A DNA stretch of 64,000 nt from IMG/VR virus record IMGVR_UViG_3300020420_000671; one strand, 5' to 3'. The translations under genes were made by a program, and so were the position numbers. The notes under the pieces are model-generated. The model was not told where the DNA came from. It made no database searches and saw only the letters and a list, made by a program, of their open reading frames with translations. The stretch comes from a virus (Duplodnaviria > Caudoviricetes). Positions 17,710 to 60,315 of this stretch are shown piece after piece. Every line of letters starts with the position of its first letter. Within the stretch, counting starts at the first letter, position 1.

Positions 17710-18558
17710 ATGGACTATTACGATCTATTAGGCGTATCAAGACAAGCCTCCGACAAAGACTTAAAAAATGCTTTCAAAAACAAAGCCAGAGAACACCATC
17801 CCGACAAAGGTGGTGATCCTGAAAAGTTCAAACAAGTCAACGAGGCTTATCAAAATTTAAGCGATCCTCAAAAGCGTCAGATGTATGATCAATTTGGAAC
17901 TACTGACCCACAACAAGCAGGTTTCAATCAAGGCGGACAAACTTTCCATTTTACAGGAGATGGCTTTGGTGGTGGTATTAACATTAATGATATAATGAAC
18001 CAATTCGGTATGGGTGGTTTTGGACAAAGACAAATGGCTAACCAGGATGTCACGATCGGGTGTAGGATAACACTTAATGAAATATATACTGGTAAGAATG
18101 TTATTGCTAATTATAGACTTAATAATGGACAAGAACAAACTGTAGACATAAAGATTCCACCTGGAATAATTCCCGGAGATAAAATTAAATATTCAGGAAT
18201 GGGTCAAAGGGATATAAATGGTATTCCTCCAGGAGATCTATATGTTCAAATTCAAGTTTTAAGAGATAGAGATTGGGCTATCAATGGACTGGATTTGTTG
18301 ACAGAAAAGAAAGTGAGTGTTTTAGATTTGATGACAGGAACAACATTTAATGTAGACACTCCGGCAGGCAACAGTATAAGACTTACAATTCCAAAAGGCA
18401 CACAACCTAATACTGTATTCAACGTAACAGGAAAAGGCTTACATAACAGAAGAACAGGTAATATAGGAAACATACATGTCAAAATAATAGGTACAGTTCC
18501 TAAAAATTTAGACAACGAAGATGTAAACGCAATTGAGCAAATACGGAGAAAAAATTAG
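17710..18558 (+). CDS. dnaJ: DnaJ/CbpA-type co-chaperone (no zinc finger)
   Basis: DYYDLLGV, HPDKGG J-domain, G/F-rich linker, GDLYV C-terminal domain. Confidence 0.92.
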   Translation: MDYYDLLGVSRQASDKDLKNAFKNKAREHHPDKGGDPEKFKQVNEAYQNLSDPQKRQMYDQFGTTDPQQAGFNQGGQTFHFTGDGFGGGININDIMNQFGMGGFGQRQMANQDVTIGCRITLNEIYTGKNVIANYRLNNGQEQTVDIKIPPGIIPGDKIKYSGMGQRDINGIPPGDLYVQIQVLRDRDWAINGLDLLTEKKVSVLDLMTGTTFNVDTPAGNSIRLTIPKGTQPNTVFNVTGKGLHNRRTGNIGNIHVKIIGTVPKNLDNEDVNAIEQIRRKN

Positions 18559-18613: not shown

Positions 18614-20875
18614 ATGGTTGAACCATCTGAAGAATTACAGGTAGTTTTTGAAAAAGCAAATAAAGATGCTAAAAAGTTAAAACATGATTATGTTACTTTA
18701 GAGCACTTGTTTTTTGCGATGTGTTGTAGTGACAACTTTATGAAGATACTAGAAGGGTATGGAGTAACTATTACAAAACTTAAAGACGAACTACATGACT
18801 ATCTTCAAAACAAATTAGATGATATCAAGAGAACTGACGACAAGCCGTATAAACCAAAGAAAACACAAACTGTTGAAAGAGTCATGAACAGAGCTTTCAC
18901 TCAAGTCTTGTTTAGTGGTAGACAGCATATTGATATTACTGATGTATTTTTATCTATGCTTAATGAGAAAAAATCATTCAGCACATACATTGCGACAGCA
19001 AACGGAGTTAACAAAGATAAGTTTAATGAATATATTAACGCCGAATATGTTAGCACTATCGAAGATGAGGAATTAGCAGGAGTTGCCCAAAGGGCTTTAA
19101 GAGCATTTACGACTAACCTCAATACTAAAGTTACGCAAGGTAAAATAGATCCTGTAATTGGCAGACAAGACGAGCTTGAAACGATATGTTTAAGTTTAGG
19201 TAGGCGTTTAAAGAATAACGTTTTGCTAGTAGGAGATCCAGGCGTTGGTAAAACTGCTATAGCCGAAGGTTTAGCATATAGAATTGTTAACAAAGTTGTT
19301 CCTAAGTTCCTAGAAGAATATAGTGTTTACAATCTAGATATAGGCTCAATGTTAGCAGGCTCTAAATATAGAGGAGACTTTGAAGAAAGATTTAAATTAG
19401 TTATGTCAGCTATTAAAAAGCAAGGCAAAACAATAGTATTCATTGATGAAGCACACATGATTAACGGTGCTGGTGCTGGTGGCGGAAACAGCTCAAATGA
19501 TTTGGCCAATATGTTGAAACCAGCTCTAGGTAAAGGTGACATCAAGGTTGTTGCTTCAACCACTTGGGAAGAATATAGAAAATACTTTGAGAAAGATAGA
19601 GCACTAATGCGTAGATTTCAACGTGTAAGTGTTGATGAACCTGATAAGAAAACTTCAGAAGATATCCTTAAAGGTATTAAAAAGTATTACGAGGACTTTC
19701 ATAACGTAGTAATTACAGATGAGGCGATTGACGAGTCAATCAAATTAAGTGTCAAATACATGACTGATAAAAAATTACCTGATAAAGCTATTGACTTGAT
19801 TGATCTAGCATGTTCAAGATTTAATTTGAAAGAAAAAGTACCGGAAGTTAAGACTGTAACTCCTGAAGAAATAAAGTTCGAACTTGCTAAGGTAGTAAAT
19901 TTACCTCCAGAACAAATACAACAAAAAGAAACAAATAATTTAAGTAAACTTAATAAAAACTTAAAACTAAATGTATATGGCCAGGATAATGCTATAGATG
20001 AAATAGTTGATAAGATCTTGGTAGCACAGGCAGGACTTAAATCAGAAGATAAACCAATTGGTTCATTTGTTTTCATGGGTCCAACTGGTGTAGGTAAAAC
20101 TGAATTAGCAAAACAATTGGCTAAACATTTAAGCATTAATTTAGCAAGATTTGATATGAGTGAATATCAAGAGAAACATAGTGTAAGTAAGCTGATTGGT
20201 TCACCTCCAGGATATGTTGGTCATGATGAACATTCAGGACAGTTGATTAATAAACTACAGGAACATCCTAATTGTGTATTGTTACTAGATGAAGTAGAAA
20301 AAGCACATCCTGATATTTCGCAAATTCTATTACAGTTAATGGATAACGGAAAAATTACAGGTAGTGACGGTAAAGAAGCAGACGCTAGAAATTGTATTTT
20401 AATATTAACAACTAATCTTGGTGCTGAGCAGGCAGAAAAAAATACAATAGGATTTAGTCAAGATATGGATATCGCTTATGGAGATGAGGAATTTAAAAGA
20501 TTCTTTGCTCCTGAATTTAGAAATAGACTTGACGGTGTTGTTGTGTTTGGAAAACTAGACAAACCAATTATGTTAAAAATTGTTGGAAAATTCCTAGTTG
20601 AGTTGAGAAATATGTTAACGGATAAAAATGTAAAATGTGAAATATCTGATTCTGCTTTAGATCATCTAGTCGATAATGGGTTTGATAGCAAGATGGGTGC
20701 TAGACCTATGCAGAGATACATAGACAAAAACATTAAACGTCCTTTAAGTAAATTACTGTTGTTCGGTGAATTAAAAGATGGCGGCACAGTAAAAATTGAT
20801 ATTGAAAAAGATCAAATAAAACTTATTCCACTAGAAAAAAAGGTCACCCATGTTACTGAAAAAGAAAACAGCTAG
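18614..20875 (+). CDS. clpA: ClpA-type Hsp100 ATPase
   Basis: Clp-N domain, two AAA+ modules (GDPGVGKT, GPTGVGKT), no ClpB middle domain, IGF loop (NTIGF), GARPM. Confidence 0.92.
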   Translation: MVEPSEELQVVFEKANKDAKKLKHDYVTLEHLFFAMCCSDNFMKILEGYGVTITKLKDELHDYLQNKLDDIKRTDDKPYKPKKTQTVERVMNRAFTQVLFSGRQHIDITDVFLSMLNEKKSFSTYIATANGVNKDKFNEYINAEYVSTIEDEELAGVAQRALRAFTTNLNTKVTQGKIDPVIGRQDELETICLSLGRRLKNNVLLVGDPGVGKTAIAEGLAYRIVNKVVPKFLEEYSVYNLDIGSMLAGSKYRGDFEERFKLVMSAIKKQGKTIVFIDEAHMINGAGAGGGNSSNDLANMLKPALGKGDIKVVASTTWEEYRKYFEKDRALMRRFQRVSVDEPDKKTSEDILKGIKKYYEDFHNVVITDEAIDESIKLSVKYMTDKKLPDKAIDLIDLACSRFNLKEKVPEVKTVTPEEIKFELAKVVNLPPEQIQQKETNNLSKLNKNLKLNVYGQDNAIDEIVDKILVAQAGLKSEDKPIGSFVFMGPTGVGKTELAKQLAKHLSINLARFDMSEYQEKHSVSKLIGSPPGYVGHDEHSGQLINKLQEHPNCVLLLDEVEKAHPDISQILLQLMDNGKITGSDGKEADARNCILILTTNLGAEQAEKNTIGFSQDMDIAYGDEEFKRFFAPEFRNRLDGVVVFGKLDKPIMLKIVGKFLVELRNMLTDKNVKCEISDSALDHLVDNGFDSKMGARPMQRYIDKNIKRPLSKLLLFGELKDGGTVKIDIEKDQIKLIPLEKKVTHVTEKENS

Positions 20876-21892: not shown

Positions 21893-22159
21893 ATGGAAAA
21901 CTTTATCAACATCGTTTTTGACACAAAGCAAGAAGTAGATGACATAGTTGTCTCTGAAGTAGCAACATCAGCATCAAATGCCTTACTAGAAGAAGAAACA
22001 GGCTACGAGCTGTACGACACAAACGATGGCAAAACAGTTCTAACAGTTGAAACACATGTACAACTAGATGAACAAGCGTCAAATGATGTGGCAAAGAAAA
22101 TAGCAAATAAATTATTTGATTTAGGATATAATAACTTTGACATTGAAGTGAGTGTCTAA
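21893..22159 (+). CDS. Acidic hypothetical protein
   Basis: AAGGAAG SD; coupled to the next gene. Confidence 0.6.
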   Translation: MENFINIVFDTKQEVDDIVVSEVATSASNALLEEETGYELYDTNDGKTVLTVETHVQLDEQASNDVAKKIANKLFDLGYNNFDIEVSV

Positions 22160-23229
22160 TGCGTTTTTATCATTTTAAACTAGACGAAAAGGTTCGACCG
22201 CCACGTCCTCAGACTGGTTTAGATCCTGAGCGTCTAAAAAAAATTGATAGAATTACACGTAAACTACAAAGCGATCCTGAACTAGTAGATGAAATTTTTA
22301 CCCAGATAAGCACTAAAGCAAAAGACATAGAAGGCAATTTTATTAATAGATTTATAGCTATGTTGAATCCGGATAATACTAGACCGGAAGCAGATCAAGC
22401 ATTTTCAAACTTTTTAAGAAAGTATGCTGAAGTTATTTCCGAAGTTGAAAGTACAACAGAAGAAAAATTTGCTTTTATTGGTAATCTAGGAAAGAAAAGC
22501 TATGTAGACACAGGTAAACTTTTAAAGCCAGGAAAGTCAAGCTGGGACGATTGGTTAGCAAATGACGACTTTGCCAGAAAATTATTTGACCATGCGTTCG
22601 GCGATCCAAGACTTACTACTGACAATAAGGGTCCAGGCGAAGCGGCCCTGGCTATTCTTTCTCCAGATATAAAATTATCAATTGGCGGAAGTGGTGACAT
22701 AGAAGTAAAAAATACACCAGTTGAAGTAAAAGCGGCGGCTGGACAAAGCACAGGTGCTGGAAGGCTTACTCCAACAAAAAACACTCTCGGTAATTATGAT
22801 TCTAAGGTAGTAGCTAAAATGTTATTTCCAAACGATCAAACCAAGCAAGATGCGTTAAATCAAAATTATAGAAACTGTTCAGCAAATATTTTTGGTAAAT
22901 TTGTAGAAGATTTTCAACTAGAGACTAATCAAGTACAAACTTTACTATCTAATATATTCAAAGAAGAAAGCATACAAGACATGGTTTCTAAGGTTGCGGC
23001 AAAGGGTAAAAACATAACTGGAAAAGACCTTCTTGGATTAAGCATTTACAATTACGGTAGATCACAAAATGATGAACATTTTTTAATACTTGTTAAGTCC
23101 ACTAGATCCAGCTTATATTTCCAGATAGACAATTGGGATCAGCCTGGTCTACAATTTGGTTTAACTGTGTTTGGAAGCGATGCACGTACTGTAGGTCAAA
23201 CGCAAATTGGAATCTTAAAGAGAGCTTAA
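22159..23229 (+). CDS. Putative PD-(D/E)XK nuclease-like protein with capsid-targeting-like leader
   Basis: Leader MRFYHFKLDE; GPGEAAL...GDIEV...VEVK motif triad. Confidence 0.5.
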   Translation: MRFYHFKLDEKVRPPRPQTGLDPERLKKIDRITRKLQSDPELVDEIFTQISTKAKDIEGNFINRFIAMLNPDNTRPEADQAFSNFLRKYAEVISEVESTTEEKFAFIGNLGKKSYVDTGKLLKPGKSSWDDWLANDDFARKLFDHAFGDPRLTTDNKGPGEAALAILSPDIKLSIGGSGDIEVKNTPVEVKAAAGQSTGAGRLTPTKNTLGNYDSKVVAKMLFPNDQTKQDALNQNYRNCSANIFGKFVEDFQLETNQVQTLLSNIFKEESIQDMVSKVAAKGKNITGKDLLGLSIYNYGRSQNDEHFLILVKSTRSSLYFQIDNWDQPGLQFGLTVFGSDARTVGQTQIGILKRA

Positions 23230-23577
23230 ATTTTTTTCTCTATCTAAAAACTTATATTCAACTTTTTCTGGTTCAAACTGCTGTAAGGCATCAAATACTT
23301 TTTGTATATCTAAAGGACCGCATGTATAAACATCTAATTGTATTAACCCAGGTTTACATTCATCCCAAACATGTATAGCAACATGACTGGTTTCTATAAC
23401 AGTCACACAGGTAATACCTCTATTGCCTTCCATATCGCAATACTTTGCGTAGGGACCTAGCATGATTCTCATGCCTATTGACTCTATTAAACTTTTTGCC
23501 CAACCCACTATTTGATGTTCGTTATTAGGTGGATTCTTTACTTCTGACCTAACAATCAGATGCTTGTGCTGTAACAT
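23215..23577 (-). CDS. speD: Pyruvoyl-dependent S-adenosylmethionine decarboxylase family
   Basis: KHLI..., VIETSHVAIHVW, LDVYTCG. Confidence 0.85.
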   Translation of the reverse strand: MLQHKHLIVRSEVKNPPNNEHQIVGWAKSLIESIGMRIMLGPYAKYCDMEGNRGITCVTVIETSHVAIHVWDECKPGLIQLDVYTCGPLDIQKVFDALQQFEPEKVEYKFLDREKNLSSL

Positions 23578-23672
23578 AAGCGTATCCTTTTTAGGTTCTA
23601 CTTATCTCGAACTAACTTTTGTATTTACATATATTGATAAATACTTTATAATAACGTATACAAGGTGTTATC

Positions 23673-24542
23673 ATGACAAAAACATTTAAAGATTATCTAA
23701 AAGAAAGCGGTTTACAGTACTATACTGGTGTTAAAAAACACGGTGAAGAGTACATGAAAAAAGCGGCTAAAGCAGGTCGTGAAGGAGCTAGCCAAGAAGA
23801 ACTAGGACGCCTAAAGGACAAATACAGTAAAGCAGAAAAGAATAAAAAAACTACTGAAGCTGATATGCAACGTGGCATGGGTGCTTTAGATAAATTTAGA
23901 GAATTATATAGAAAAGGTATTGGCACAAATGATGACGAAGTTGTTTTGAAAGAGTTGATTGACGTAATTAATGATGATACTTTACAAGATGATTTTCCAC
24001 AACTTAAATCTTTTACAAGTGCATCACCGTTTGACGACTCAGAGATAGTCCAAGCAAAAGATGTACCTGGAAATAGTGCTGATGAAAAAATTATGTCACT
24101 CATAAAAGCAATTGATGATGATTCATGGGTAGATGGTTTCGCTCAAATGTTGACGAAAGATTTCAACATGAGTGATAATGAAGAACTTGATAGAGTTCAG
24201 GAACTTGCTGGTGTACAAACAAATGAAGAAACATATGATGGAGATGATTTCTATAATAACTATGGTGACATGTGGTACAACGAAGATGAGATCATGGACG
24301 AAGCAGAATATCAAGGACGTAAAGTAAAGCTAGGCAAACCAATGCGTGGCGATGTAAAAAAGTTCAAAGTATACGTTAAAGATCCAAAAACTAAAAATGT
24401 TAAAAAAGTAAACTTTGGTGATCCTAACATGAAAATTAAAAAATCTAATCCGGCACGTAGAAGAAGTTTCCGTGCTAGACACAACTGTGATAATCCAGGA
24501 CCAAGAACAAAAGCTAGATATTGGTCATGTAGGAAATGGTAA
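23673..24542 (+). CDS. Putative internal head protein (T4-like CTS) with C-terminal basic two-Cys module
   Basis: MTKTFKDYLKE closely resembles T4 IP leaders; late box GATAAATA at 23636; C-terminal AEYQGRKVKLGKP...RYWSCRKW. Confidence 0.6.
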   Translation: MTKTFKDYLKESGLQYYTGVKKHGEEYMKKAAKAGREGASQEELGRLKDKYSKAEKNKKTTEADMQRGMGALDKFRELYRKGIGTNDDEVVLKELIDVINDDTLQDDFPQLKSFTSASPFDDSEIVQAKDVPGNSADEKIMSLIKAIDDDSWVDGFAQMLTKDFNMSDNEELDRVQELAGVQTNEETYDGDDFYNNYGDMWYNEDEIMDEAEYQGRKVKLGKPMRGDVKKFKVYVKDPKTKNVKKVNFGDPNMKIKKSNPARRRSFRARHNCDNPGPRTKARYWSCRKW

Positions 24543-24896
24543 ATGAAAATATTTGAAATTTTTAATAAAGAAATAGAAGATAAAATGCCCTACGATGTAG
24601 TAGATGACGTTCATTTTCATTTGCTTAATGACGATATGTTTTATAGAAAATATTATCTTCCGTGTATGGAAAAAATAAGAGCAGAGAAAAATGAAAAAGT
24701 GATTCAAGGTCATATGGATCCTATGATCCATAAAGGAATCAATCATTATGTTATAAAATATGACATAGATAAAACACCCACTGATTTAATGACTCCAGAG
24801 GAAGTAAAATCATTAAAGGACAGGGTTTTGGATCACGAACGAAATCCTGATAAGGAGTTACAAAGTGCACCTGAGACAGATATTCGAAGACCGTAA
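24543..24896 (+). CDS. Putative internal head protein
   Basis: Leader MKIFEIFNKE. Confidence 0.5.
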   Translation: MKIFEIFNKEIEDKMPYDVVDDVHFHLLNDDMFYRKYYLPCMEKIRAEKNEKVIQGHMDPMIHKGINHYVIKYDIDKTPTDLMTPEEVKSLKDRVLDHERNPDKELQSAPETDIRRP

Positions 24897-25749
24897 AACG
24901 GCTGTCTTTGCTTTAGGTAGACTGAATCCAGCTACCATTGGCCATGAAAGACTAGTTAACAAAATCAAAGAACAAAAAGGTGATCCTTTCCTTTTCTTAA
25001 CTGACCGACCATCAAAATTACCTGACGATCCTTTAGCACCGCAAGAAAAATTAGAGTGGGCACAAAAAAGTTTTGACGGAATACAAATTAGATTAGCAAA
25101 AACAATAGCTACAGCGGCAAATCAATTATATAGACAAGGTTACAATGAAATTACATTCTTAGAAGGTGAAGATAAATTATTTAATATACTTAAAAATTAC
25201 AACGGAAAGTTTGATGGCAAAAAAGGTCCTATTGAATTTCCCTTTAAGTTCGATAAATTAAATTACGTTAGGCTAGAAAGAAATGCTGACGATCCTGGTG
25301 CTTCAGGAATGAGTGCTACAAAGCTAAGACAATTTGCTCAAAATAATGATCTAGAAAAATTTACTTCAGGACTAGCTCAAAAGGCACAACCAAATGCGGA
25401 AAAAATGATGCGTCAGTTACAAGGAGCATTAGGTGTTGATCCTGTTGAAGAAGATTTACAAGAGCTAGAAGTAAAACAGCAAAAACCAAAGATAGATGTA
25501 TTGAATAACATTGCCGCAAGGACAGATGGAAGACCTTTTCCTTTGAGTTGGAACGCAGGTAAAGATGAAATATCAGTTGGAGGTAAAATGTTTGTATCTC
25601 CAAAGACAGCAAATAAATTTTTACGTTTCTTCGATAATCAAGAAAAGGAAAATCAAGAACTTATGAAAAAAGCACTAGGAAGTGCTAAAACAGCCGCTCA
25701 GCTTTTTAAAAATTTAGGCTTTGAATTTAAACTTGATATGGAGAGATAA
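24865..25749 (+). CDS. HIGH-superfamily nucleotidyltransferase (cytidyltransferase-like) with CTS-like leader
   Basis: GTG start after AAGGAG; MHLRQIFE; GRLNPATIGH (HIGH-like) and GMSATKLR (KMSKS-like). Confidence 0.75.
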   Translation: MHLRQIFEDRKTAVFALGRLNPATIGHERLVNKIKEQKGDPFLFLTDRPSKLPDDPLAPQEKLEWAQKSFDGIQIRLAKTIATAANQLYRQGYNEITFLEGEDKLFNILKNYNGKFDGKKGPIEFPFKFDKLNYVRLERNADDPGASGMSATKLRQFAQNNDLEKFTSGLAQKAQPNAEKMMRQLQGALGVDPVEEDLQELEVKQQKPKIDVLNNIAARTDGRPFPLSWNAGKDEISVGGKMFVSPKTANKFLRFFDNQEKENQELMKKALGSAKTAAQLFKNLGFEFKLDMER

Positions 25750-25961
25750 TGGATATTAAAACTCTTCAAAAACTTGCTGGCATAAATGAATTTCAAGGTT
25801 ACAGACCTGTTAGCATAGAAAATATGAGTCATACTGCTAGTGCTTTGAAGGCAAAGGAAAAGCGTTTAGGAGTAAAACCAGGCGATCGCGATTGGTTCAA
25901 GTTGTGGTTTAACTTACCTTACCTTACTGGTCCTGCTCAATTTAGGAGTAGAAAGAAATGA
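25749..25961 (+). CDS. Small putative internal head protein
   Basis: MDIKTLQKLAGINE; basic remainder. Confidence 0.55.
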   Translation: MDIKTLQKLAGINEFQGYRPVSIENMSHTASALKAKEKRLGVKPGDRDWFKLWFNLPYLTGPAQFRSRKK

Positions 25962-26506
25962 AAATAAGACAAATTTTTGAAGCAGTTGAAGGTAAACTAG
26001 AACTAACAAAATTGCCTTATAAAACAGGAGATCTTTCTCCAGTTCTTTCTAAGGACAATGTAGAATATCATTATAATGTGCTATCCAAAGGATATGTAAA
26101 TAGATATAATAATCAAGAAGGTGATCCAAAATTTAATTATGGTGGTGCTATGTTACACAATTTATTTTGGTCACAACTAAAGAAACCAGCAGGGTCAAAT
26201 TTACCTACAGGAGCAATTAAAAATTTAATTGAAGAAAACCATGAAGACTATTCTACGTTTAAAAATAGCGTGGTAGTTTTAGCAATGGGTATACAAGGTA
26301 GTGGTTGGGTCTATCTATCAAAAAACGGAGATCTTAAAACAACTCCTAATCAAAGTTATAAAACAGATATACTAATGCCTATAGATATGTGGGAACATAG
26401 TTTTACTGATTATATTCCGGCAAAAGATGCTAAGAAAAAGTATTTACAAAACATATTTAAGATAGTAAACTGGGACGTAATAAACAATAGGATAGACGGA
26501 AAATGA
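25958..26506 (+). CDS. Fe/Mn superoxide dismutase with CTS-like leader
   Basis: MKIRQIFEAVE; LPYKTGDLSPVLS, YHY, LHNLFW, GSGWVYL, DMWEH (all four metal ligands present). Confidence 0.88.
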   Translation: MKIRQIFEAVEGKLELTKLPYKTGDLSPVLSKDNVEYHYNVLSKGYVNRYNNQEGDPKFNYGGAMLHNLFWSQLKKPAGSNLPTGAIKNLIEENHEDYSTFKNSVVVLAMGIQGSGWVYLSKNGDLKTTPNQSYKTDILMPIDMWEHSFTDYIPAKDAKKKYLQNIFKIVNWDVINNRIDGK

Positions 26507-29500
26507 AATTTGGTGATTTCAAAGTAAAAGAAGAAGCCGCTGGCGTTGGCATAATTACAAAACAAAACGCAACCAAAGATGTTCCTGTTGGCGGTGAATA
26601 TATGAATGTGAAAAAACTTGGTTTGGGCAAAGGTAAGCCAAAAAAACATCCTAAAAAAGTACGAGGATCAAAGACCAATGTATTATTCAATTTAGGAATG
26701 GCCGAGAAGGAAGACAAAGGCGAAGACATGAAAGGTTTTGATCCTGAAACAGTACAAGCCCTAGCTAGACTTAGATCCAAATATCCACATGCCAAAGATC
26801 CGTTAGACGCACTTCTAAAATCAGTTCTTGCTACAGATAGAGATAACGATGCTGTTGACGATACGCAAGATGATAAGATCAGTAAAAACAAAACAACGGT
26901 TAGTAAACTTGAACCTGAGATTATAAGATTAAAAAGCAGATTGAGAGATGTAGAACTTCAGTTGAAAAATAAAGTGAAGGTAGGAGAGGCAGAACAATTA
27001 GACGAATTTATCCCCGCAGTGGCCGCAAGAATTGCTACTAGTGTTTTACCTAACATCGCAAAAAATTCTTCGCACCTAGGAGCCACAGGAGCTGGTACAG
27101 CAATAGGTGATAAGTTATTCAAACAGATTAAAAAAACTAGAAATGCCAATAAAGGTGTAGGACTAAAGGGTAGAAATCTAAGAGCTAAACAACTTTCACA
27201 AACCAATGAAGTTACAGCAAAGGATTTAAGTAGCGACAGCGAAGTTTACGTCGATATGGATGGCGTTCTAGCTGATTTCTTTGGTGCTTGGAAAAAACTT
27301 GTAGGTAAAGATTGGCGACAAATAAAAGATTTAGATGGAGCGTTACAGAAGATTAGGGATAAGGAAGATTTTTGGTTAAACATTCCTATTACTTCAAATG
27401 CTATGAATCTTTTAAATTTGATAAAAGAACTTAAAGGCAAATATAATATATTAAGTGCTCCTCTTCCAAACGATCCTAATGCTGAACCCCACAAACGTGA
27501 ATGGATCAAAAAGAATCTATCAGCCTTTCCACCGAGCAAGGTTATAATTACATCTAATAAAGCAGTACACGCTACCCAACCAGACGGAACACCAAACATC
27601 CTAATAGATGACTTTGGGAAAAATATTGAAAAATGGGAAGCGGCAGGCGGTGTTGGATTCAAACACAAGGATCACAAGTTTGAAAGAACTGTTAAAAATC
27701 TTAAACAAAATATGAAAGAAGATCTAGAAGAGCAACAGTTAGATGAATTTTTTCAATATTTTAAAATGTTAAAATATGGTTGGAAAACAGGCATGTGGCT
27801 GTGGAACAACAAATGGGCTATTGCGTTTATAGGCATTTCTTACAAGGCTTTTAAATGGGTTGCTGATGCTATAGCATGGCTTAAACCCTTCCTTGACAAT
27901 CCAGTAGTAAAAGCATTAGGAAGATATGGATTACCTGCTATAGGAGTTGCTATTGCGTTATATGGTGGAAAAAAACTATACGACCAAATAACAAAAGCAG
28001 AGAACGAAAAAGACTTGGAAAAAATATTAGCAAACTTTGAAGCAGATCAAGAAGAACTTGCTATGCTTAAAAAAGAATTAGAAATTATATCGAAAAAAAG
28101 CAAAACTACTGAAGCAAAAATGAGCAAAGATTCCATTAAAAGCATACACAAAACAGCTGACAAAATTAAAGATAAACCAAAAGCCAAAAAGTCAATAGGC
28201 AATTGGGCAAAAGAAAGAGGAATGGATCCTGAAGGAGCAATTTACGCAATAGCTACAAATATGAAAAAGCGTAAGCAAGGAAAAAAAATTACAGGATTAG
28301 GCAAGGAGTCTTACACAAGAGATGAACTTCCACAAATAAGTCAAAAACATTTAGTGAAGATTCCGCACACGATGGAAACTGTTTATGTCAAAGACATAGT
28401 CCCAGTACAAAAAGAAAGATTAAAAGAAAATCATAAAAAACAACTTTACAAAATACTAGATGGAAGATTTAATCCTATTGTGGTAGACTGTTACGATAGA
28501 ATAGTCAACGGTCATCACAGATATGACATCCTTAAAATGCTTCAGATGGAAAGCATTACAGTTGCTAAACTTCCTTTTACATTAGAATTTTTATTAGAAA
28601 TAACTAGAAGAGATTTCTTAAAAGGGCTTGGCGCCACAGCGGCAATGTCCATGGTACCGAAGGCCGCAAAAGCGTTGGCCAACAACAAGGAACAATGGTA
28701 TGTTATAGATGAAAAAGGCAGATTACAAGGACCTATGGATAGTAATAAAGCAAAAACTGTATCCATTGCTTATCCAAAAAAATTACCGGCTATAGAACCT
28801 GCTCCTGAAGGTTTTGAAATAATAATTGCCCAAGGATCAAGTACTAAATTGAATATGGCTTTTACAAAAGCCGAGTTTGCTATAAAGAAAATATATGCTA
28901 GAAGATTTCCTGGAAAGACTGTGAATGTAAATCGCAAAATAATTAAATTACAGGGTAGAGCAATAGAGGCGGCAGGTTCATCTTATGTAGCTACTCAGAG
29001 TGCTTATGTTAAGAAAACTACAGAAGAAAGCGTTGAAGAAGGAAATTTATTATCAAATCCACAGAACTCTATTTTGGTTAGAAAAAAAGATGGTTATGAC
29101 CATTATAAACTTGCCACGCACATAGCAAACATAAAAGGAATGTCACCAAAGGTTGCCGCTAGGAATAAGCAAGACATATTCATTCAATTTTATGGTGGTG
29201 AAAAAGAAAAACAATACATGATGAAAAATCTTAAACGTATAGGATATGATGTACAACCTGCTGATGGATATAAAGATACACATTTCGACGAAAACATAGA
29301 CGGATCATACATATTAAGAGTGAGAGAAAATTTTGCTGATGGTAAGAAAAAAGGTAAAAGTAGACCAGGACGTGTTAAACGTTCAGGAGCAAGTTGTAAA
29401 GGATCAGTTACAAGTTTAAGAGCAAAAGCAAAGAAAGCATCAGGTGAACGTGCTAAGATGTATCATTGGTGTGCTAATATGAAGGGTGGTAAAAAGAAAA

Positions 29501-30423
29501 CTGAAGCATATACCCAAGATGAATTTTTTAAAATTTTAGTAGAAAGTACTCCACAACAGCTCGAAGAAGGTATAGCAGATACACTTAAAAAACTTCCTAA
29601 GAATTTATTATCAAAAGTGACACCTATAATTAAAAAGATCCCAAAGACAGCAAAAAATTTAACCTTAATGGCAGTATTGCTTGGTACAATGGTAAATGCT
29701 GTTGCGGCAGGAGATATGGCCAAAGTCAATACACCACTTGATAAACTTAATAATATGACAACTATGAGCACTACAATGGACACAGGTACTGATGCTGACG
29801 TTGGGCCAGGGCATACAATGCCTGACAAAATAAAGGTATTAAAAATGCCAACACCTCCACCAGCACCGGGTGCAGATACTCCAGATGGAACAAAAAATGA
29901 TGGTACAAACACACAGACAACAAAAGATGGTAATCGTACTGTGTCAAGTGGAGCAGGTACATATACATTTTCACCAGATGGGAAATTATTAAAGTATGAA
30001 ACTCCTAAAATAAAAGGATATCAACAAATACATGATCTAGTTAAAAAAACAGTCACAGTTGATGCTAATACATCTGTTACAATGGACAAAGATTTTGGTA
30101 ACTTATCCAAAGCAGATAAAGAATTATTGAAAAAGAATGATCCTAATTTTGATAAAAGTACATCAGTAATAGATCAAAAAGCAACTTATGACATGAGCGG
30201 TAACCTTATAAGCAAAGATCATACTGGTATAAAGTCCGGAGCAGTATCGATTGGTATTGGTGGAGATGGAAATAAGAGTTTTAAATTTGACGCAGGAGGA
30301 GGAAAGGTATATAAAGCAAGTAGTGCCGATATGCCAGCGGCTAAGAAAACTTTAAGCAAAATGCAGACGGATTTGAACAAAGCAAAAGATCAGAGTGCGC
30401 CATTTGCAAACAAATCGACCTAG
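26503..30423 (+). CDS. Modular polyprotein (HAD 5'-nucleotidase, membrane segment, ParB/Srx-like domain, Tat-signal domain, basic module, Sec-signal domain)
   Basis: DMDGVLADF...ILIDD HAD motifs; PIVVD...IVNGHHR ParB-like motif; TRRDFLKG; modules bounded by xLxE-type linkers. Confidence 0.7.
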   Translation: MKFGDFKVKEEAAGVGIITKQNATKDVPVGGEYMNVKKLGLGKGKPKKHPKKVRGSKTNVLFNLGMAEKEDKGEDMKGFDPETVQALARLRSKYPHAKDPLDALLKSVLATDRDNDAVDDTQDDKISKNKTTVSKLEPEIIRLKSRLRDVELQLKNKVKVGEAEQLDEFIPAVAARIATSVLPNIAKNSSHLGATGAGTAIGDKLFKQIKKTRNANKGVGLKGRNLRAKQLSQTNEVTAKDLSSDSEVYVDMDGVLADFFGAWKKLVGKDWRQIKDLDGALQKIRDKEDFWLNIPITSNAMNLLNLIKELKGKYNILSAPLPNDPNAEPHKREWIKKNLSAFPPSKVIITSNKAVHATQPDGTPNILIDDFGKNIEKWEAAGGVGFKHKDHKFERTVKNLKQNMKEDLEEQQLDEFFQYFKMLKYGWKTGMWLWNNKWAIAFIGISYKAFKWVADAIAWLKPFLDNPVVKALGRYGLPAIGVAIALYGGKKLYDQITKAENEKDLEKILANFEADQEELAMLKKELEIISKKSKTTEAKMSKDSIKSIHKTADKIKDKPKAKKSIGNWAKERGMDPEGAIYAIATNMKKRKQGKKITGLGKESYTRDELPQISQKHLVKIPHTMETVYVKDIVPVQKERLKENHKKQLYKILDGRFNPIVVDCYDRIVNGHHRYDILKMLQMESITVAKLPFTLEFLLEITRRDFLKGLGATAAMSMVPKAAKALANNKEQWYVIDEKGRLQGPMDSNKAKTVSIAYPKKLPAIEPAPEGFEIIIAQGSSTKLNMAFTKAEFAIKKIYARRFPGKTVNVNRKIIKLQGRAIEAAGSSYVATQSAYVKKTTEESVEEGNLLSNPQNSILVRKKDGYDHYKLATHIANIKGMSPKVAARNKQDIFIQFYGGEKEKQYMMKNLKRIGYDVQPADGYKDTHFDENIDGSYILRVRENFADGKKKGKSRPGRVKRSGASCKGSVTSLRAKAKKASGERAKMYHWCANMKGGKKKTEAYTQDEFFKILVESTPQQLEEGIADTLKKLPKNLLSKVTPIIKKIPKTAKNLTLMAVLLGTMVNAVAAGDMAKVNTPLDKLNNMTTMSTTMDTGTDADVGPGHTMPDKIKVLKMPTPPPAPGADTPDGTKNDGTNTQTTKDGNRTVSSGAGTYTFSPDGKLLKYETPKIKGYQQIHDLVKKTVTVDANTSVTMDKDFGNLSKADKELLKKNDPNFDKSTSVIDQKATYDMSGNLISKDHTGIKSGAVSIGIGGDGNKSFKFDAGGGKVYKASSADMPAAKKTLSKMQTDLNKAKDQSAPFANKST

Positions 30424-30444
30424 GAAATAAAGGTAAATAATACT

Positions 30445-30663
30445 ATGTTAGTTAGAGAAATAATTAAGGAATACGCTACACAAGGAGCGACTGTCGCAGG
30501 TAATGTACCAGCAGTAGCGAACCCTAGTATGGCTTATGGACATAGACCTAAGGGTAAAAATGGCTTACCACAAGCTCCACAAAAGAAAAACAAGGATGGA
30601 ACAGCTAAAAACGCATTGGATATTAGTAACAATTTAATGGGCGGTAAGACCATTAAGAGATAA
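30445..30663 (+). CDS. Small basic putative internal head protein
   Basis: GTAAATA box 6 nt before ATG; leader MLVREIIKE. Confidence 0.55.
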   Translation: MLVREIIKEYATQGATVAGNVPAVANPSMAYGHRPKGKNGLPQAPQKKNKDGTAKNALDISNNLMGGKTIKR

Positions 30664-30682
30664 ATACTAAAAAGGAAGCAAA

Positions 30683-31618
30683 ATGAGAGAAAAGGACCTT
30701 AAAGAAGATTTAGCAACGCTGGCTTACAAAGCCGAAGCAGACCATGAAGTACAGATGGCTAGATCAGATCTATATAAAATAGCCAAATACTCTATCAAGC
30801 TACACGAAATGATGAAGGGTGTAACTGAGCAAGAGGGTATTGAAGGTTGGGTTCAATCTAAAATTACAAAAGCCGCAGATTACATAGGTTCAGTATACCA
30901 TTATCTAGACTATGAAATGAAGTTTGATGAAATGACTGAAGCTAAAAAAGCAAAACCAGATTACATTGATATTGACGGCGATGGCGATAAAAAAGAGCCA
31001 ATGAAAAAAGCAGTCAAGGATAAAGCTAAGAAGAAAAAAGTTAAAGAAGGTATGATGGACGACGAAGTAAAATCCATACTTATGAAGCATCCAAAAGAAT
31101 TCGCAAAACTGAGAGCATCAGAAGATTTGATGGACGTTTATGGCACTCCGTTATATCAAGAATTGTTTGAATATTTTTCAGATTCAGGTGAAATGCCATA
31201 TGGTACTCAAAAGGGCAGAGACGGTGATCCTGTCCAGTGGATGAACGATGAGCTAGATGACATGGGTGTATTTGACCAACCAGAAAAAATGAATGTATCA
31301 GCCGCAGACAAAAGATTAAACACACCTGCTTTCAAAAAAATGCAAGCCGGAGATAAACGTTATAGTGATAAAACTGAAGAAACATACGAAAGTTATCTAC
31401 AGGAAAAACTTAACAAAACAAGAAAGTATAAAACACTACTGGAATCTGTTGGAAAACCAATTTCAGAAGAAGAATTTGACACCCTTGCTGAGAAACAAGA
31501 TGCTTGTTATCACAAGGTAAAGTCCAGATACAAAGTTTGGCCTAGCGCCTATGCCTCTGGTGCTCTAGTTCAGTGCCGTAAAAAGGGTGCTAAGAACTGG
31601 GGTAACAAGAGCAAGTGA
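30683..31618 (+). CDS. Modular putative internal head protein
   Basis: GATAAATA box at 30659; MREKDLKE; DIDGDGD Ca-binding-like loop; C-terminal KQDAC...VQCRKKGAKNWG module. Confidence 0.55.
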   Translation: MREKDLKEDLATLAYKAEADHEVQMARSDLYKIAKYSIKLHEMMKGVTEQEGIEGWVQSKITKAADYIGSVYHYLDYEMKFDEMTEAKKAKPDYIDIDGDGDKKEPMKKAVKDKAKKKKVKEGMMDDEVKSILMKHPKEFAKLRASEDLMDVYGTPLYQELFEYFSDSGEMPYGTQKGRDGDPVQWMNDELDDMGVFDQPEKMNVSAADKRLNTPAFKKMQAGDKRYSDKTEETYESYLQEKLNKTRKYKTLLESVGKPISEEEFDTLAEKQDACYHKVKSRYKVWPSAYASGALVQCRKKGAKNWGNKSK

Positions 31619-32388
31619 AACTAAGACAACTCATAAGCATTATCGAAAACGCTGACCAAGACAGTACAGAAGTCACTGTTGGCAATTATACCACAACACA
31701 TTTTTATATGTGTGGAAGTGCGATCAAGACAGCAGAAAAACACGGGGAAAAGCCCGGTATGGAAGATTTAGTCCGTTTACAAGATATGATTTATAAACTT
31801 GAAAAAGCAGTTATGGATACTGGCGAAGCAACATCTGAAGCAAAACAATTTGCTCAAAAATTACATAACGAAATAATGGATAAAGCAAAAGAGATTGGCA
31901 TCGAAGACGAAATTGTTGACTACCAAGAAGATCATAGAGACAGTATTTTAAAAGGCGATCCTAAGCCTGGATTTGGGCGTGTGGATGTTGAAGAAAATTG
32001 GGAAATTACAGATGAAGGTACTAGATGTTGGAAGGGTTATGAACGTAAAGGCATGAAGACCATGTTCGGAAAACGTGTACCTAACTGTGTAAAAAGAGAA
32101 CATGTAGACTATTGTGTGAACTGTGGTGATCTTGTATTTTCAGAAGATATGAATTTACATGAAGATTTAAAAAAATGGTTCAAACAAAAATGGGTCCGCT
32201 TTGGTCCAGACGGAAAAGTACGTGGATCATGCGGAGGAAAAAGTGAAGGTGAAGGAAAGCCAAAGTGTTTACCAGCCGCAAAGGCCTACGCTATGGGCAA
32301 GAAGAAAAGAAAAACTTCTGCCGCTCGTAAACGTAGGAAAGATCCTAATGCAGATAGACGTGGTAAGGCTAAAAACGTTAAAACTTAG
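31615..32388 (+). CDS. Modular putative internal head protein
   Basis: GTG start; MKLRQLISIIE; two basic two-Cys modules following Glu residues. Confidence 0.55.
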   Translation: MKLRQLISIIENADQDSTEVTVGNYTTTHFYMCGSAIKTAEKHGEKPGMEDLVRLQDMIYKLEKAVMDTGEATSEAKQFAQKLHNEIMDKAKEIGIEDEIVDYQEDHRDSILKGDPKPGFGRVDVEENWEITDEGTRCWKGYERKGMKTMFGKRVPNCVKREHVDYCVNCGDLVFSEDMNLHEDLKKWFKQKWVRFGPDGKVRGSCGGKSEGEGKPKCLPAAKAYAMGKKKRKTSAARKRRKDPNADRRGKAKNVKT

Positions 32389-32648: not shown

Positions 32649-33296
32649 ATGTCTTTTTTAGTTTGTAACACCCCAATTATTCCAGTATATGTAAAGAAAG
32701 AATATCTCTATGATTTAGAAAAAGGTCATGGCGAACTAACTCCTGGCTTTTGGATCACAGCTAAAAGTGTTATGGGTAAAGCTCTGTACTTTGAAACACT
32801 TCTAACAGATTACGGTGCTTTATTTGATAAACTTCCTATATCAGCTTTTGTTTGGAAGGAAGATTATGATAAACATAACCAACTACCATTAGATGTTTTA
32901 CAGATATGGGATTGTTTTGATTATGACATTACTATTATTAAAAAGTCTATGCTATCCAACTGTCAATTTTTTGGAAAAGATAAAAAAATGCATAACGGTG
33001 AATATCTATTTACTATTGACAATGCTCATAGGGAAAGAAATGTTATTGATACAAACTTTTCTGAACACGATCCCGAACACAAATCGTTTAACATAATTAA
33101 GTTAGACAATGGTCAGTTTGCGGCACAGCCTAACAATAGAATAATATTCACAGATCAAAGCCTAGTTCTAGGTGATAGAAAACAACCAGACTTCAAAGTG
33201 TGTACACAAAATTACACAGTAGAAAATACCCCAAAGTGGTCAGTAGGACATACAGACGAATGGCAATACAAGACAAAAGAGGAAAAAGATTTATAG
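32649..33296 (+). CDS. Hypothetical protein
   Basis: 215-aa ORF after GATAAATA box at 32633. Confidence 0.7.
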   Translation: MSFLVCNTPIIPVYVKKEYLYDLEKGHGELTPGFWITAKSVMGKALYFETLLTDYGALFDKLPISAFVWKEDYDKHNQLPLDVLQIWDCFDYDITIIKKSMLSNCQFFGKDKKMHNGEYLFTIDNAHRERNVIDTNFSEHDPEHKSFNIIKLDNGQFAAQPNNRIIFTDQSLVLGDRKQPDFKVCTQNYTVENTPKWSVGHTDEWQYKTKEEKDL

Positions 33297-58086: not shown

Positions 58087-59184
58087 ATGGGTACTTTAAG
58101 ACTTAAAAGAGGAACAAAAGAAGCACTACAAACCAACCCGGGTTTTACACCTGCGGAGGGTGAACTTGTTTATACAACCGATAGCAAAGAGGTATTTGTA
58201 GGCGATGGTGCCACACAAGGTGGCATAGCAGTTTCAGTATCCACACAGAACCTAGAAGATTTAGGTAACGTTCAAGCACTAGCGGCACAAAAAGACCAAA
58301 TATTAGTATATACAGGATCTAATTGGGCGGCGACAGACAATCCAGCAGTAGACATACGTGGTAACATTTACGGTGATGATTCAACACTATTAGTTGATGC
58401 TATCAACGGAAAAATAGTAGGACCAGTTGAAACTTCAACTGTAGCGGCAACTACACTAACAGGAAACCTTACAGGTGATACTAACGGATCACATACAGGC
58501 GGAGTAGTAGGTGATGTTGTAGGTAATGTAGTAGGAACTATCACTGGTTCATTAACAGGTACTATGACCGGTTCAGTGTTTGGTGACGACAGTTCAGGAT
58601 TACTAGTAGACGGTATCAATAACAAAATTACTGGTGCTATTAATGCTATGAATGTTTCAACCTTTGATAATACTATCAACATAGGTACAAAAGTAGCTAA
58701 TCCAGCTTTTAATTATAACACAACGTCAACAAACGGTTCTTTTCCACAATCAACTATACAGATAAGAAATGTACATAACGATGTAACAGCAGACGAATTA
58801 GGTCTTTTCAGATCCAGAGGAACTTTAGGAGCAAGAACAACTGTACAAGCAAATGATGTAATAGGTGGATTTGGTTGGTCAGCATATGATGGAGCATCAG
58901 TTTTAATTGGTGCGAACATGAATAGTGTTATTAATAGTGTTTCCGCTAATAATCTATCAGCAGATTTAATTATTAGAACAAGAAACGGTGCTATATCAAC
59001 ATACGGCGAAGCAATGAGAATCAAAGCAGATAAAGGTGTGACAACAGCAAGTTACGTCCAGTTTGGTAGTTTAACAACTACACAAAGAGATGCTCTAACA
59101 GCCGCGAATGGTATGGTGATATATAATTCTACAGATAATAAGTTCCAAGGCTATGAAAATGGTGCTTGGGCTAATTTAATTTAA
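58087..59184 (+). CDS. Tail-fibre-like virion protein
   Basis: LRLKRGT...PAEGELVYTTDSKEVFVGDG N-terminal anchor, two GDDS repeats, GxVxG beta repeats, C-terminal LTTTQRDAL...GMVIYN; late box at 58052. Confidence 0.65.
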   Translation: MGTLRLKRGTKEALQTNPGFTPAEGELVYTTDSKEVFVGDGATQGGIAVSVSTQNLEDLGNVQALAAQKDQILVYTGSNWAATDNPAVDIRGNIYGDDSTLLVDAINGKIVGPVETSTVAATTLTGNLTGDTNGSHTGGVVGDVVGNVVGTITGSLTGTMTGSVFGDDSSGLLVDGINNKITGAINAMNVSTFDNTINIGTKVANPAFNYNTTSTNGSFPQSTIQIRNVHNDVTADELGLFRSRGTLGARTTVQANDVIGGFGWSAYDGASVLIGANMNSVINSVSANNLSADLIIRTRNGAISTYGEAMRIKADKGVTTASYVQFGSLTTTQRDALTAANGMVIYNSTDNKFQGYENGAWANLI

Positions 59185-59755
59185 ATAATTTACCCTTATC
59201 ATATAAATCAACAATTTCACCAAAAGGTATATCTGTACTAAATTGGCAATGAAATCTATAATCATTTGTCTCGTTTGTAGCATTATGATATTCTAACAAG
59301 TTAAAAATCACAGCAGTATGATCTTGATAATTTATAGTTTCCTGTAATTTAAATTTAGCATTATCGTAATCATTGTACTCCCCCTCCTCTAAAGTCCAAA
59401 ACTTTGTTGGTCCGAAACTACGAATATCTAAAGGATAAACAGGAATACTAATTACACTTACTCTTGGCACAAAAGGATTCTTTTGGTCTACATGAATCTT
59501 TCCTATGGTAAAAGGCGTTTGTCCTAGTATTTCATAGTGTACATCAACCATAAACTTTTTGCCAATTTCATCCATAAGTTCTGTAGGAATCAAATCTCTA
59601 GGACAATACCAATTCCAATCTGTTTTACCATACTTGTCTGGCTTTGTACCAGTATAAGCAAAATTGTCTTTGTGTTTCAGTATATGATCTGCTAATTTAG
59701 ATCTAGTTTCTTTACAGAAAGTTAATTCTTTTATGTGTTGATAATAAGGTCTCAT
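59171..59755 (-). CDS. 2OG-Fe(II) oxygenase-like protein
   Basis: IHVD...YHNA...R HxD...H facial triad. Confidence 0.55.
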   Translation of the reverse strand: MRPYYQHIKELTFCKETRSKLADHILKHKDNFAYTGTKPDKYGKTDWNWYCPRDLIPTELMDEIGKKFMVDVHYEILGQTPFTIGKIHVDQKNPFVPRVSVISIPVYPLDIRSFGPTKFWTLEEGEYNDYDNAKFKLQETINYQDHTAVIFNLLEYHNATNETNDYRFHCQFSTDIPFGEIVDLYDKGKLFKLN

Positions 59756-60312: not shown

Positions 60313-60315
60313 TTA

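What the first reader, a model, noticed from the sequence alone, without database searches (positions are those of the whole stretch)
28600..28680. Internal twin-arginine signal exposed only after cleavage
Seen: residue 700 onward reads ITRRDFLKGLGATAAMSMVPKAAKALA, a textbook (S/T)RRxFLK motif with an h-region and an AxA site, directly after FLLE. Nucleotides 28621-28680 are 37/60 GC versus about one-third overall, partly explained by Ala/Gly codons. Known: Tat signals work at the N-terminus and export folded proteins. Inference: capsid proteolysis creates a neo-N-terminal Tat substrate that, once injected into the cytoplasm, is exported or membrane-anchored by host TatABC without new synthesis, for example for superinfection exclusion or Tat jamming.
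Basis: partly seen in the sequence, partly recalled or inferred. Interest (0 to 1): 0.8.

Follow-up and report, generated by a model that had tools for sequence, protein, structure and literature searches.

The report
Buried Tat export signal in phage polyprotein
An uncultured marine jumbo phage carries a textbook bacterial Tat export signal 700 residues inside a modular protein, always just after a T4-type head-protease cutting motif, which suggests (untested) that cutting in the capsid unmasks an export tag on a protein injected with the DNA.

Summary
Residues 700-726 of the 1306-aa ORF 26503-30423(+) read I-T-R-R-D-F-L-K, then a 12-residue uncharged stretch, then P-K-A-A-K-A-L-A. They pass the curated cut-offs of Pfam TAT_signal and TIGR01409.

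The cassette is conserved. I found it in 32 related proteins, in 19 distinct versions.
- L/I-x-E immediately precedes it in all 11 distinct upstream contexts.
- The spacing to R-R is invariant.
- R-R-x-F, G-A and the -3 Ala are invariant although the hydrophobic core has been swapped several times.
- It is internal in 27 proteins and sits right behind a 9-residue T4-like leader in 5.
- In one clade the cassette-plus-passenger module and a ParB module occur in both orders.
- The codon before T/D-R-R is ATA, CTT or ATG, so internal initiation is not the general route.

Close relatives (DNA polymerase 83-94% identical) encode a T4-type prohead protease. Their major capsid protein has L-A-E|A aligned to the T4 L-T-E|A site.

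Cleavage that exposes a Tat signal on a head-packaged, injected protein is the best reading (about 0.4). Packaging, cleavage, Tat dependence and function are all untested, and the passenger fold is unknown.

The scan noted the same design before on other DNA (e1-5342070, e1-5318639). I found no paper describing it.

The parts
26503..30423 (+). 1306-aa modular ORF (P0001), the gene that holds the finding
   Evidence: The same continuous ORF design occurs in relatives.
26503..26532 (+). N-terminal leader M-K-F-G-D-F-K-V-K-E, T4 CTS-like
   Evidence: Compared with T4 IPII/IPIII M-K-T-Y-Q-E-F-I-A-E.
27244..27648 (+). 5'(3')-deoxyribonucleotidase (NT5C) domain, residues 248-382
   Evidence: PF06941 25.5 bits (cut-off 24.8); phrog_2643 E = 8e-23.
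27796..27969 (+). Aromatic/hydrophobic segment(s), residues about 432-489, starting soon after Q-L-D-E|F-F
   Evidence: Hydropathy peaks; homology breakpoint at residue 415.
28309..28578 (+). ParB-like domain, residues about 603-692
   Evidence: phrog_620 match at 654-689, E = 1.3e-5; PF02195 precomputed on relatives; alignment.
28579..28599 (+). Joint T-L-E-F-L-L-E (residues 693-699), with two L-x-E motifs. This is the proposed prohead-protease site L-L-E699|I700.
   Evidence: 72 homology segments end at 695-701. L at -3 is nearly invariant and E at -1 invariant in alignment A2. 11 of 11 contexts.
28600..28680 (+). Tat-type signal cassette, residues 700-726: T-R-R-D-F-L-K, 12-residue uncharged core, P-K-A-A-K-A-L-A. 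Proposed signal-peptidase site A726|N727.
28681..29040 (+). Passenger domain A, residues 727-846, fold and function unknown. Ends at S-V-E-E846|G.
   Evidence: Homology breakpoint at 842-846. It is missing as a block in P0274 and P0277. AF2 gave pLDDT 40.
29041..29328 (+). Widespread module starting G-N-L-L-S-N-P-Q, residues 847-942. It is preceded by Glu in 28 of 28 distinct contexts.
29329..29499 (+). Basic tail module N-F-A-D-G ... H-W-C-A-N-M-K, residues 943-999. It is the C-terminal end of most family members.
   Evidence: Most of the 924 hits at E <= 1e-10 match it. Glu at -1 in 177 of 177 and V/I/L/M at -3 in 137 of 177 distinct contexts.
29500..29544 (+). Leader-like joint T-E-A-Y-T-Q-D-E-F-F-K-I-L-V-E, residues 1000-1014
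29638..29721 (+). Hydrophobic helix, residues about 1046-1073
   Evidence: Hydropathy 1.59 over 19 residues.
29722..30420 (+). C-terminal Thr/Gly/Lys-rich domain, residues 1074-1306, no family match
   Evidence: shared with P0002, P0012 and the G001 ORF.
22159..32388 (+). Surrounding array of genes with M-[KR]-x-x-[EQD]-[FIL]..E leaders. It includes a leader-tagged Fe/Mn superoxide dismutase and a nucleotidyltransferase.

Best explanation
P0001 is a head-packaged polyprotein of an uncultured marine T4-related jumbo phage. It is built of exchangeable modules joined by Glu-ended joints that copy the T4 capsid-targeting leader. Proposed steps, all inferred: (1) the N-terminal leader takes the protein into the prohead; (2) the T4-type prohead protease cuts after L/I/V-x-E at the joints, including L-L-E699|I700; (3) this frees a roughly 147-residue piece whose new N-terminus, I-T-R-R-D-F-L-K, is a Tat signal; (4) the piece is ejected with the DNA into the next host's cytoplasm; (5) host TatABC exports it; (6) signal peptidase removes the signal after A-L-A726. 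A pre-made protein would thus reach the periplasm without new gene expression. Directly shown are the motif and its conservation, the fixed joint in front of it, the modular shuffling, the absence of a general internal start codon, and the T4-type head machinery in close relatives.
For: - The Tat motif is above the curated cut-offs and is unlikely by chance in the window.
- 32 proteins and 19 distinct cassettes carry it. R-R-x-F, G-A and Ala at -3 are invariant; Pro and Lys in the c-region are nearly invariant. The hydrophobic cores differ and chimeras exist.
- Normal GC3 in other variants but 0.54 here suggests a recent core swap, so the signal properties were kept through replacement.
- L or I at -3 and E at -1 occur in 11 of 11 distinct upstream contexts, always two residues before R-R. 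This is the T4 gp21 motif L/I-x-E (PMC9026906).
- The cassette is N-terminal behind a 9-residue leader in 5 proteins and internal in 27. ParB and cassette modules occur in both orders (P0212 against P0283-P0285). This fits modules that are separated after translation.
- The start codon position holds ATA, CTT or ATG.
- Homology breakpoints in P0001 fall at 415, 699, 842-846, 940 and 999. Glu precedes the tail module in 177 of 177 contexts, with V/I/L/M at -3 in 77%.
- Leaders resemble T4 IPII/IPIII.
- Relatives G001 and G002 encode Peptidase_S77 (93 and 98 bits) next to a scaffold-like gene and a gp23-type capsid protein. That protein has L-A-E|A aligned to T4 L-T-E|A. G001 also carries a cassette-bearing homologue.
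- T4 CTS cargo is delivered into the infected cell (PMC9026906).
Against: - There are no data on virion content, cleavage or export.
- The window's own genome is not held, so the protease is known only from relatives.
- The gene array lies among replication and chaperone genes, not head genes. The T4 late-promoter consensus is not enriched.
- N-terminal versions of the cassette would already be export-competent in the producing cell. That competes with packaging and shows masking is not obligatory.
- The shared E-I-T-R-R-D-F-L string in two clades may reflect common descent of joint plus cassette rather than independent selection.
- The uncharged core here is only 12 residues.
- The passenger has no recognisable fold or periplasmic function.
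Confidence: 0.4

Rival explanations
1. The Tat signal is genuine but is used in the producing cell, with no need for head packaging. N-terminal versions are exported directly. Internal versions enter the translocase as a loop with the upstream domains left in the cytoplasm, or are freed by another protease. Signal peptidase then releases the passenger into the periplasm of the infected cell, for example for exclusion or lysis control.
For: Five relatives have the cassette at the true N-terminus. Internal, tethered Tat signals work in Sco2149-type proteins (PMC5449189). The array is not in a head-gene module and no T4 late promoters were seen.
Against: It does not explain the invariant L/I-x-E two residues before the motif. 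It also does not explain why unrelated cytoplasmic enzymes in the same array share the T4-like leader and Glu-ended joints. The number of hydrophobic helices upstream of the cassette is 0, 1 or 2, so there is no conserved Sec-then-Tat topology.
Confidence: 0.2
2. The cassette is Tat-like in sequence but not a Tat substrate. It could be a phage-specific handle or a weak membrane-inserting helix. Examples would be a new N-terminal anchor on an ejection protein, or a peptide bound by a phage or host chaperone or by capsid parts.
For: The mature SPN3US ejection protein gp47 is described with a predicted transmembrane helix after protease processing (PMC5694885). P0001 has other hydrophobic segments just after Glu joints. 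Earlier scan notes report Tat-like leaders fused to capsid-protein pieces in many phages, where the export reading did not hold up (unchecked by me).
Against: A plain anchor does not need the full R-R-x-F-[LM]-K consensus, a c-region Lys, a Pro at -6 or -7 and a conserved A-x-[AST] site. All of these are kept while the core changes. The hydropathy of the core is below that of a membrane helix.
Confidence: 0.2
3. The internal motif is a functionless relic of a gene fusion that buried the N-terminal signal of a formerly separate exported protein.
For: Stand-alone N-terminal versions exist. The start Met is retained in one variant.
Against: The motif stays intact in 27 internal copies across diverged clades. 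The cores have been replaced yet keep signal properties, and the cut-site-like joint is invariant.
Confidence: 0.05

Closest known systems
T4 internal proteins IPI, IPII, IPIII and Alt, with the capsid-targeting sequence processed by prohead protease gp21
   Same: Both have short N-terminal leaders of the M-K-x-x-Q-E-F-I-x-E type on otherwise unrelated proteins, and a cut motif L/I-x-E. A T4-type protease, scaffold and gp23-type capsid protein are present in relatives. In T4 the cargo is injected with the DNA.
   Different: Here many modules are strung into one polyprotein with internal copies of the leader or joint. One module starts with a Tat signal. None of this has been shown in virions. 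T4 internal proteins are not known to carry export signals.
Bacterial twin-arginine signal peptides (PF10518, TIGR01409)
   Same: The cassette has the full S/T-R-R-x-F-L-K consensus, a weakly hydrophobic Gly/Ala-rich core, a basic c-region and an A-x-A site, and scores above the curated cut-offs.
   Different: It lies 700 residues inside the primary translation product, is encoded by a phage, and has no cofactor-type passenger.
Dual Sec-Tat membrane proteins such as the actinobacterial Rieske protein Sco2149 (PMC5449189, PMC3471235)
   Same: Both have an internal Tat motif that works without a free N-terminus.
   Different: Those have an even number of Sec-inserted helices before the motif, an uncleaved hydrophobic helix after it and a cofactor domain. 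Here the upstream helix count varies from 0 to 2, the core is short and an A-x-A site follows.
Polyvalent proteins of phages and conjugative elements (Iyer et al. 2017, PMC5512222)
   Same: Both are multi-domain proteins that combine ParB-type and nucleotide-processing domains, are predicted to be packaged and delivered with the DNA, and are sometimes proteolytically processed.
   Different: That paper does not contain the terms signal peptide, twin-arginine or transmembrane. The modules, the basic tail and the T4-like joints found here are not described there.
Giant-phage ejection proteins processed by the prohead protease (phiKZ, 201phi2-1, SPN3US)
   Same: Both involve many head proteins cut after Glu at a short motif. 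In gp47 a hydrophobic helix is described in the mature fragment (PMC5694885).
   Different: Those use S/A-x-E motifs and long propeptides, and no Tat motif is reported.

Membership tests
Tat signal peptide (PF10518 / TIGR01409) | S/T-R-R-x-F-L-K motif | tested here: met
   T-R-R-D-F-L-K at residues 701-707. PF10518 scores 23.8 bits against 22.7; TIGR01409 scores 17.5 to 23.3 against 16.7.
Tat signal peptide (PF10518 / TIGR01409) | Weakly hydrophobic h-region, then a c-region with a basic residue and an A-x-A site | tested here: met
   12 uncharged residues, 19-residue hydropathy below 1.2, then P-K-A-A-K-A-L-A. The core is short; other variants have 15-20.
Tat signal peptide (PF10518 / TIGR01409) | Located at the N-terminus of the translated protein | tested here: not met
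   The cassette starts at residue 700. The frame is open for 705 codons upstream, the codon is ATA, and no start or ribosome-binding site is seen. It is met only in 5 relatives.
Tat signal peptide (PF10518 / TIGR01409) | Export depends on TatABC and on the R-R pair | not testable with these tools
   This needs a reporter assay in wild-type against tatC cells.
T4-type capsid-targeted internal proteins | Short N-terminal leader like M-K-T-Y-Q-E-F-I-A-E | tested here: met
   P0001 starts M-K-F-G-D-F-K-V-K-E. Nine neighbouring genes and about half of 204 distinct family N-termini fit the pattern; T4 sequences were read directly.
T4-type capsid-targeted internal proteins | L/I-x-E site at the end of the leader | tested here: met
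   L-L-E699 lies before the cassette, and 11 of 11 upstream contexts fit. Motif from PMC9026906.
T4-type capsid-targeted internal proteins | Genome encodes a gp21-type prohead protease | tested here: inconclusive
   Peptidase_S77 is above cut-off in relatives G001 and G002. The window's own genome is not held and the window has no head genes.
T4-type capsid-targeted internal proteins | Protein found in virions in cleaved form and injected | not testable with these tools
   There is no cultured relative, and the tail module is absent from isolate genomes.
Dual Sec-Tat integrated membrane proteins | Even number of Sec-dependent helices directly upstream of the internal Tat motif | tested here: not met
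   The upstream hydrophobic 19-mers number 0, 1 or 2 among 17 cassette-bearing proteins, and 9 have none.
Polyvalent proteins (Iyer et al. 2017) | Two or more unrelated effector-type domains in one phage protein, with variable architectures | tested here: met
   NT5C plus ParB-like plus other modules. Relatives add nucleotidyltransferase, superoxide dismutase and acetyltransferase domains.

The most novel reading that the evidence does not exclude
A clade of jumbo phages pre-loads its capsid with proteins whose Tat export signal is unmasked by the head-maturation protease. Once injected, these ready-made proteins are sent by the host's own Tat machine to the periplasm or inner membrane within moments of infection, before any phage gene is expressed. 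This would be a delivery route for virion cargo that has not been described.
Probability: 0.35. Interest if true: 0.85.

Novelty: new variant of a known kind. Interest (0 to 1): 0.64.

Why it matters
Phage proteins injected with the DNA are known to act in the cytoplasm, for example on restriction enzymes or RNA polymerase. A cargo protein carrying a protease-unmasked Tat signal would extend that reach to the cell envelope without new synthesis. It would also be a natural case of a Tat signal whose activity is switched on by proteolysis. This clade offers a rich, unexplored set of exchangeable cargo modules with clear joints. The idea is cheap to test with standard Tat reporters and virion mass spectrometry.

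Tried and rejected
- Internal translation start: rejected as a general route. The codons are ATA, CTT or ATG, and no Shine-Dalgarno-like bases lie upstream in the window.
- Conserved Sec-then-Tat topology: rejected.
- T4 late promoter TATAAATA near the array: 4 matches in the window against 10 expected, none near the gene.
- Fold of residues 700-942: AF2 on a 13-row alignment gave pLDDT 40, which is unusable, so no fold search was run.
- ESM Atlas look-alikes of the passenger: none.
- Close phage isolates: none by DNA. The protein matches isolates only in the NT5C domain. The basic tail module has no match in 50,697 isolate records.
- Wider locus scans: the IMG/VR scan with the cassette alignment gave only 5 loci.
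- Phage-encoded TatA, or further Tat-signal hits in four relatives' contigs: none.
- Rfam families at 26000-31000: none.
- The minus-strand 74-aa ORF 28542-28766 overlaps the GC-rich cassette. I saw no support for it as a gene.
- Elevated GC3 as a general nucleotide-level signal: rejected, because other cassette variants have normal GC3.
- Literature: no open-access paper combined twin-arginine with prohead protease, capsid targeting or jumbo phage.

Full report
**1. The observation**

The + strand ORF 26503-30423 encodes 1306 residues (P0001). Residue 700 starts at base 28600.
- The sequence there is F-L-L-E, then I-T-R-R-D-F-L-K, then G-L-G-A-T-A-A-M-S-M-V-P, then K-A-A-K-A-L-A, then N-N-K.
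- Pfam TAT_signal (PF10518) matches residues 699-718 at 23.8 bits (cut-off 22.7).
- TIGR01409 gives 17.5 bits on the whole protein and 23.3 bits on the fragment 690-760 (cut-off 16.7).
- A strict pattern occurs once in the six-frame translation of the window, against a mean of 0.02 in 200 codon-block shuffles.
- The GC count of 37/60 is exact.
- The excess GC extends to synonymous sites. GC3 is 0.54 against 0.24 for the gene, and the highest-GC3 window of the whole gene starts at residue 705.
- Other variants of the cassette have normal GC3 of 0.18-0.25. I therefore read the GC excess as a recent swap of the hydrophobic core from a GC-richer source, not as an RNA-level signal.

**2. What the gene and the phage are**

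P0001 has the following parts:
- an NT5C deoxyribonucleotidase domain;
- a ParB-like domain just before the cassette;
- two or three hydrophobic segments;
- a highly basic module starting N-F-A-D-G;
- a C-terminal domain with no family match.

The window's neighbouring genes and relatives:
- The window also holds a DnaJ homologue, a ClpA/B-type double AAA+ unfoldase, a Fe/Mn superoxide dismutase and a family-B DNA polymerase.
- The polymerase is closest, at 42-50% identity, to jumbo phages of Rhizobiales, Vibrio, Erwinia and Yersinia.
- No isolate is close by DNA.
- IMG/VR holds many marine relatives.
- Two long relatives are G001 (146 kb, polymerase 94% identical) and G002 (165 kb, 83%). CheckV rates them 41-47% complete, so the genome is probably about 350 kb.
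- The window's own genome is not held.

**3. Conservation of the cassette**

Three protein searches recovered a large, very modular family. Thirty-two members carry the cassette, in 19 distinct versions.
- In alignment A2 the invariant columns are Glu at -1, R-R, Phe, G-A and Ala at -3 of the A-x-[AST] site.
- Leu at -3 of the joint, the c-region Pro and the c-region Lys are nearly invariant.
- At least six different hydrophobic cores occur.
- Chimeras exist. The G001 protein has the N-part of one type joined to the core and passenger of another.
- Three unrelated passengers follow the signal.

This is the pattern expected if the export-signal properties are under selection.

**4. The joint in front of the cassette**

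- All 11 distinct upstream 8-mers have Glu at -1 and Leu or Ile at -3, and the cassette always begins exactly two residues before R-R.
- L/I-x-E is the cleavage motif of the T4 prohead protease gp21. The first ten residues of T4 IPIII form the capsid-targeting sequence (PMC9026906).
- I read the T4 leaders directly from the T4 genome: M-K-T-Y-Q-E-F-I-A-E for IPII and IPIII, and M-K-T-F-K-E-F...I-T-E for IPI.
- Relatives with the cassette at the N-terminus start M-R-A-Q-E-F-I-T-E or M-R-F-K-E-I-I-A-E, followed at once by I-T-R-R.
- The codon at the first cassette position is ATA in the window and two relatives, CTT in another and ATG in a third. Internal initiation therefore cannot be the general way to expose the signal.

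**5. Evidence that the protein is a chain of separable modules**

- Homology breakpoints of P0001 against about 280 relatives cluster at residues 415 (Q-L-D-E|F), 699 (L-L-E|I), 842-846 (V-E-E|G), 940-942 (V-R-E|N) and 999.
- The cassette plus passenger A (residues 700-846) is absent as a block from P0274 and P0277. There the same ParB joint runs straight into the next module.
- The basic tail is preceded by Glu in 177 of 177 distinct contexts. It has V, I, L or M at -3 in 137 of them, against a background of about 1.4% for [LIVM]-x-E per residue.
- In another clade the same two modules occur in both orders: leader, cassette-passenger, ParB, tail in P0212; and leader, ParB, cassette-passenger in P0283 to P0285.
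- A position-dependent signal that is free to move within the polypeptide fits a protein that is cut into its modules.

**6. The cutting machinery**

- G001 and G002 encode Peptidase_S77, the T4 prohead protease family, at 93 and 98 bits (cut-off 27).
- In G001 a 366-residue acidic coiled-coil protein and a gp23-type capsid protein follow the protease gene; the gp23 family also matches in G002.
- In a BLASTP alignment, the G001 capsid protein has Y-L-A-E|A-A-T-A-G opposite T4 F-L-T-E|A-E-I-G-G. From memory, this is the T4 gp23 maturation site Glu65|Ala66, and it fits the published motif.
- G001 also has a cassette-bearing homologue of P0001.
- The leaders cluster in the window. Seven pattern matches lie in 22159-31618, with two more on GTG starts, against two loose matches among about 79 other genes.

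**7. Best reading and its limits**

The best reading is that the prohead protease cuts after L-L-E699 and leaves a new N-terminus that is a Tat signal. The piece is injected and then exported by the host. T4 shows that leader-tagged cargo, even foreign proteins, is packaged, processed and delivered into the next cell (PMC9026906). Tat export is post-translational. No step conflicts with known biology, but none is shown here.

Weak points:
- The array sits among replication and chaperone genes.
- No T4 late promoters were found.
- N-terminal cassettes would be export-competent already in the producing cell.
- Joint plus cassette may be conserved partly by common descent.
- The hydrophobic core of this variant is short.
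- The passenger has no recognisable fold.
- The host and its Tat system are unknown. TatA family genes are widespread, present in 11 of 14 control genomes, and the relatives' contigs encode none of their own.

**8. Rivals**

- (a) Genuine Tat export in the producing cell without head cleavage. This is possible because tethered internal Tat signals work in Sco2149 (PMC5449189). However, the conserved even-helix topology of that class is absent here, and this reading leaves the joint unexplained.
- (b) A Tat-like but Tat-independent handle or anchor, as suggested by the hydrophobic mature end of SPN3US gp47 (PMC5694885) and by earlier scan notes on Tat-like leaders fused to capsid pieces. The full consensus and the peptidase site argue against a plain anchor.
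- (c) A dead relic of a gene fusion, which the conservation makes unlikely.

**9. Novelty**

The components are known: Tat signals, T4 capsid-targeting leaders and polyvalent proteins. The combination is not.
- The polyvalent-protein survey does not contain the terms signal peptide, twin-arginine or transmembrane.
- No open-access paper combined twin-arginine with prohead protease, capsid targeting or jumbo phage.
- The scan itself has noted the same design on two other genomes (e1-5342070, e1-5318639). I did not check those notes.

I class the finding as a new variant of a known kind, of fairly high interest because it is surprising and directly testable.

Noticed in passing
window 29329-29499, and about 924 proteins: A roughly 57-residue, very basic module (N-F-A-D-G-K-K-K-G-K-S-R-P-G ... 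H-W-C-A-N-M-K) ends hundreds of otherwise unrelated proteins from uncultured phages. Glu always precedes it, and a hydrophobic residue usually sits at -3. It matches no Pfam or PHROG family and no isolate genome. It could be a DNA-binding or packaging tail that is cut off in the head.
   Followed up: partly
window 17710-18558 and 18614-20875: A full DnaJ homologue (J domain plus C-terminal domain) and a ClpA/ClpB-type double AAA+ unfoldase lie just upstream of the leader-tagged gene array. Such chaperones could unfold or refold cargo proteins. This is not tested.
   Followed up: partly
window 25958-26506: A Fe/Mn superoxide dismutase (both Pfam domains) starts with the leader M-K-I-R-Q-I-F-E. 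Its stop codon overlaps the start of P0001 (ATGA).
   Followed up: partly
window 27006-27011, 27747-27752: Two joints of P0001 read Q-L-D-E|F. If they are cut after Glu, the new N-terminus would be Phe. In the L-T-R-R cassette variants it would be Leu. From memory, both are bacterial N-degron residues, so some fragments might be short-lived unless they are exported or protected.
   Followed up: no
P0212 against P0283-P0285; P0006 / G001 ORF: Module order is permuted between relatives, and recombination joints fall inside the Tat cassette itself, right after R-R-D-F-L. The conserved motif may therefore also serve as a recombination site for swapping passengers.
   Followed up: partly
window 32649-33296: A 215-aa protein matches phrog_3704 ('ferredoxin', E = 7e-102) but no Pfam family at E <= 0.001. 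The PHROG name may be misleading.
   Followed up: no
window 59171-60888, minus strand: Two adjacent paralogous genes start with the same M-E-N-C-L-Y-K-F-K peptide. Function unknown.
   Followed up: no
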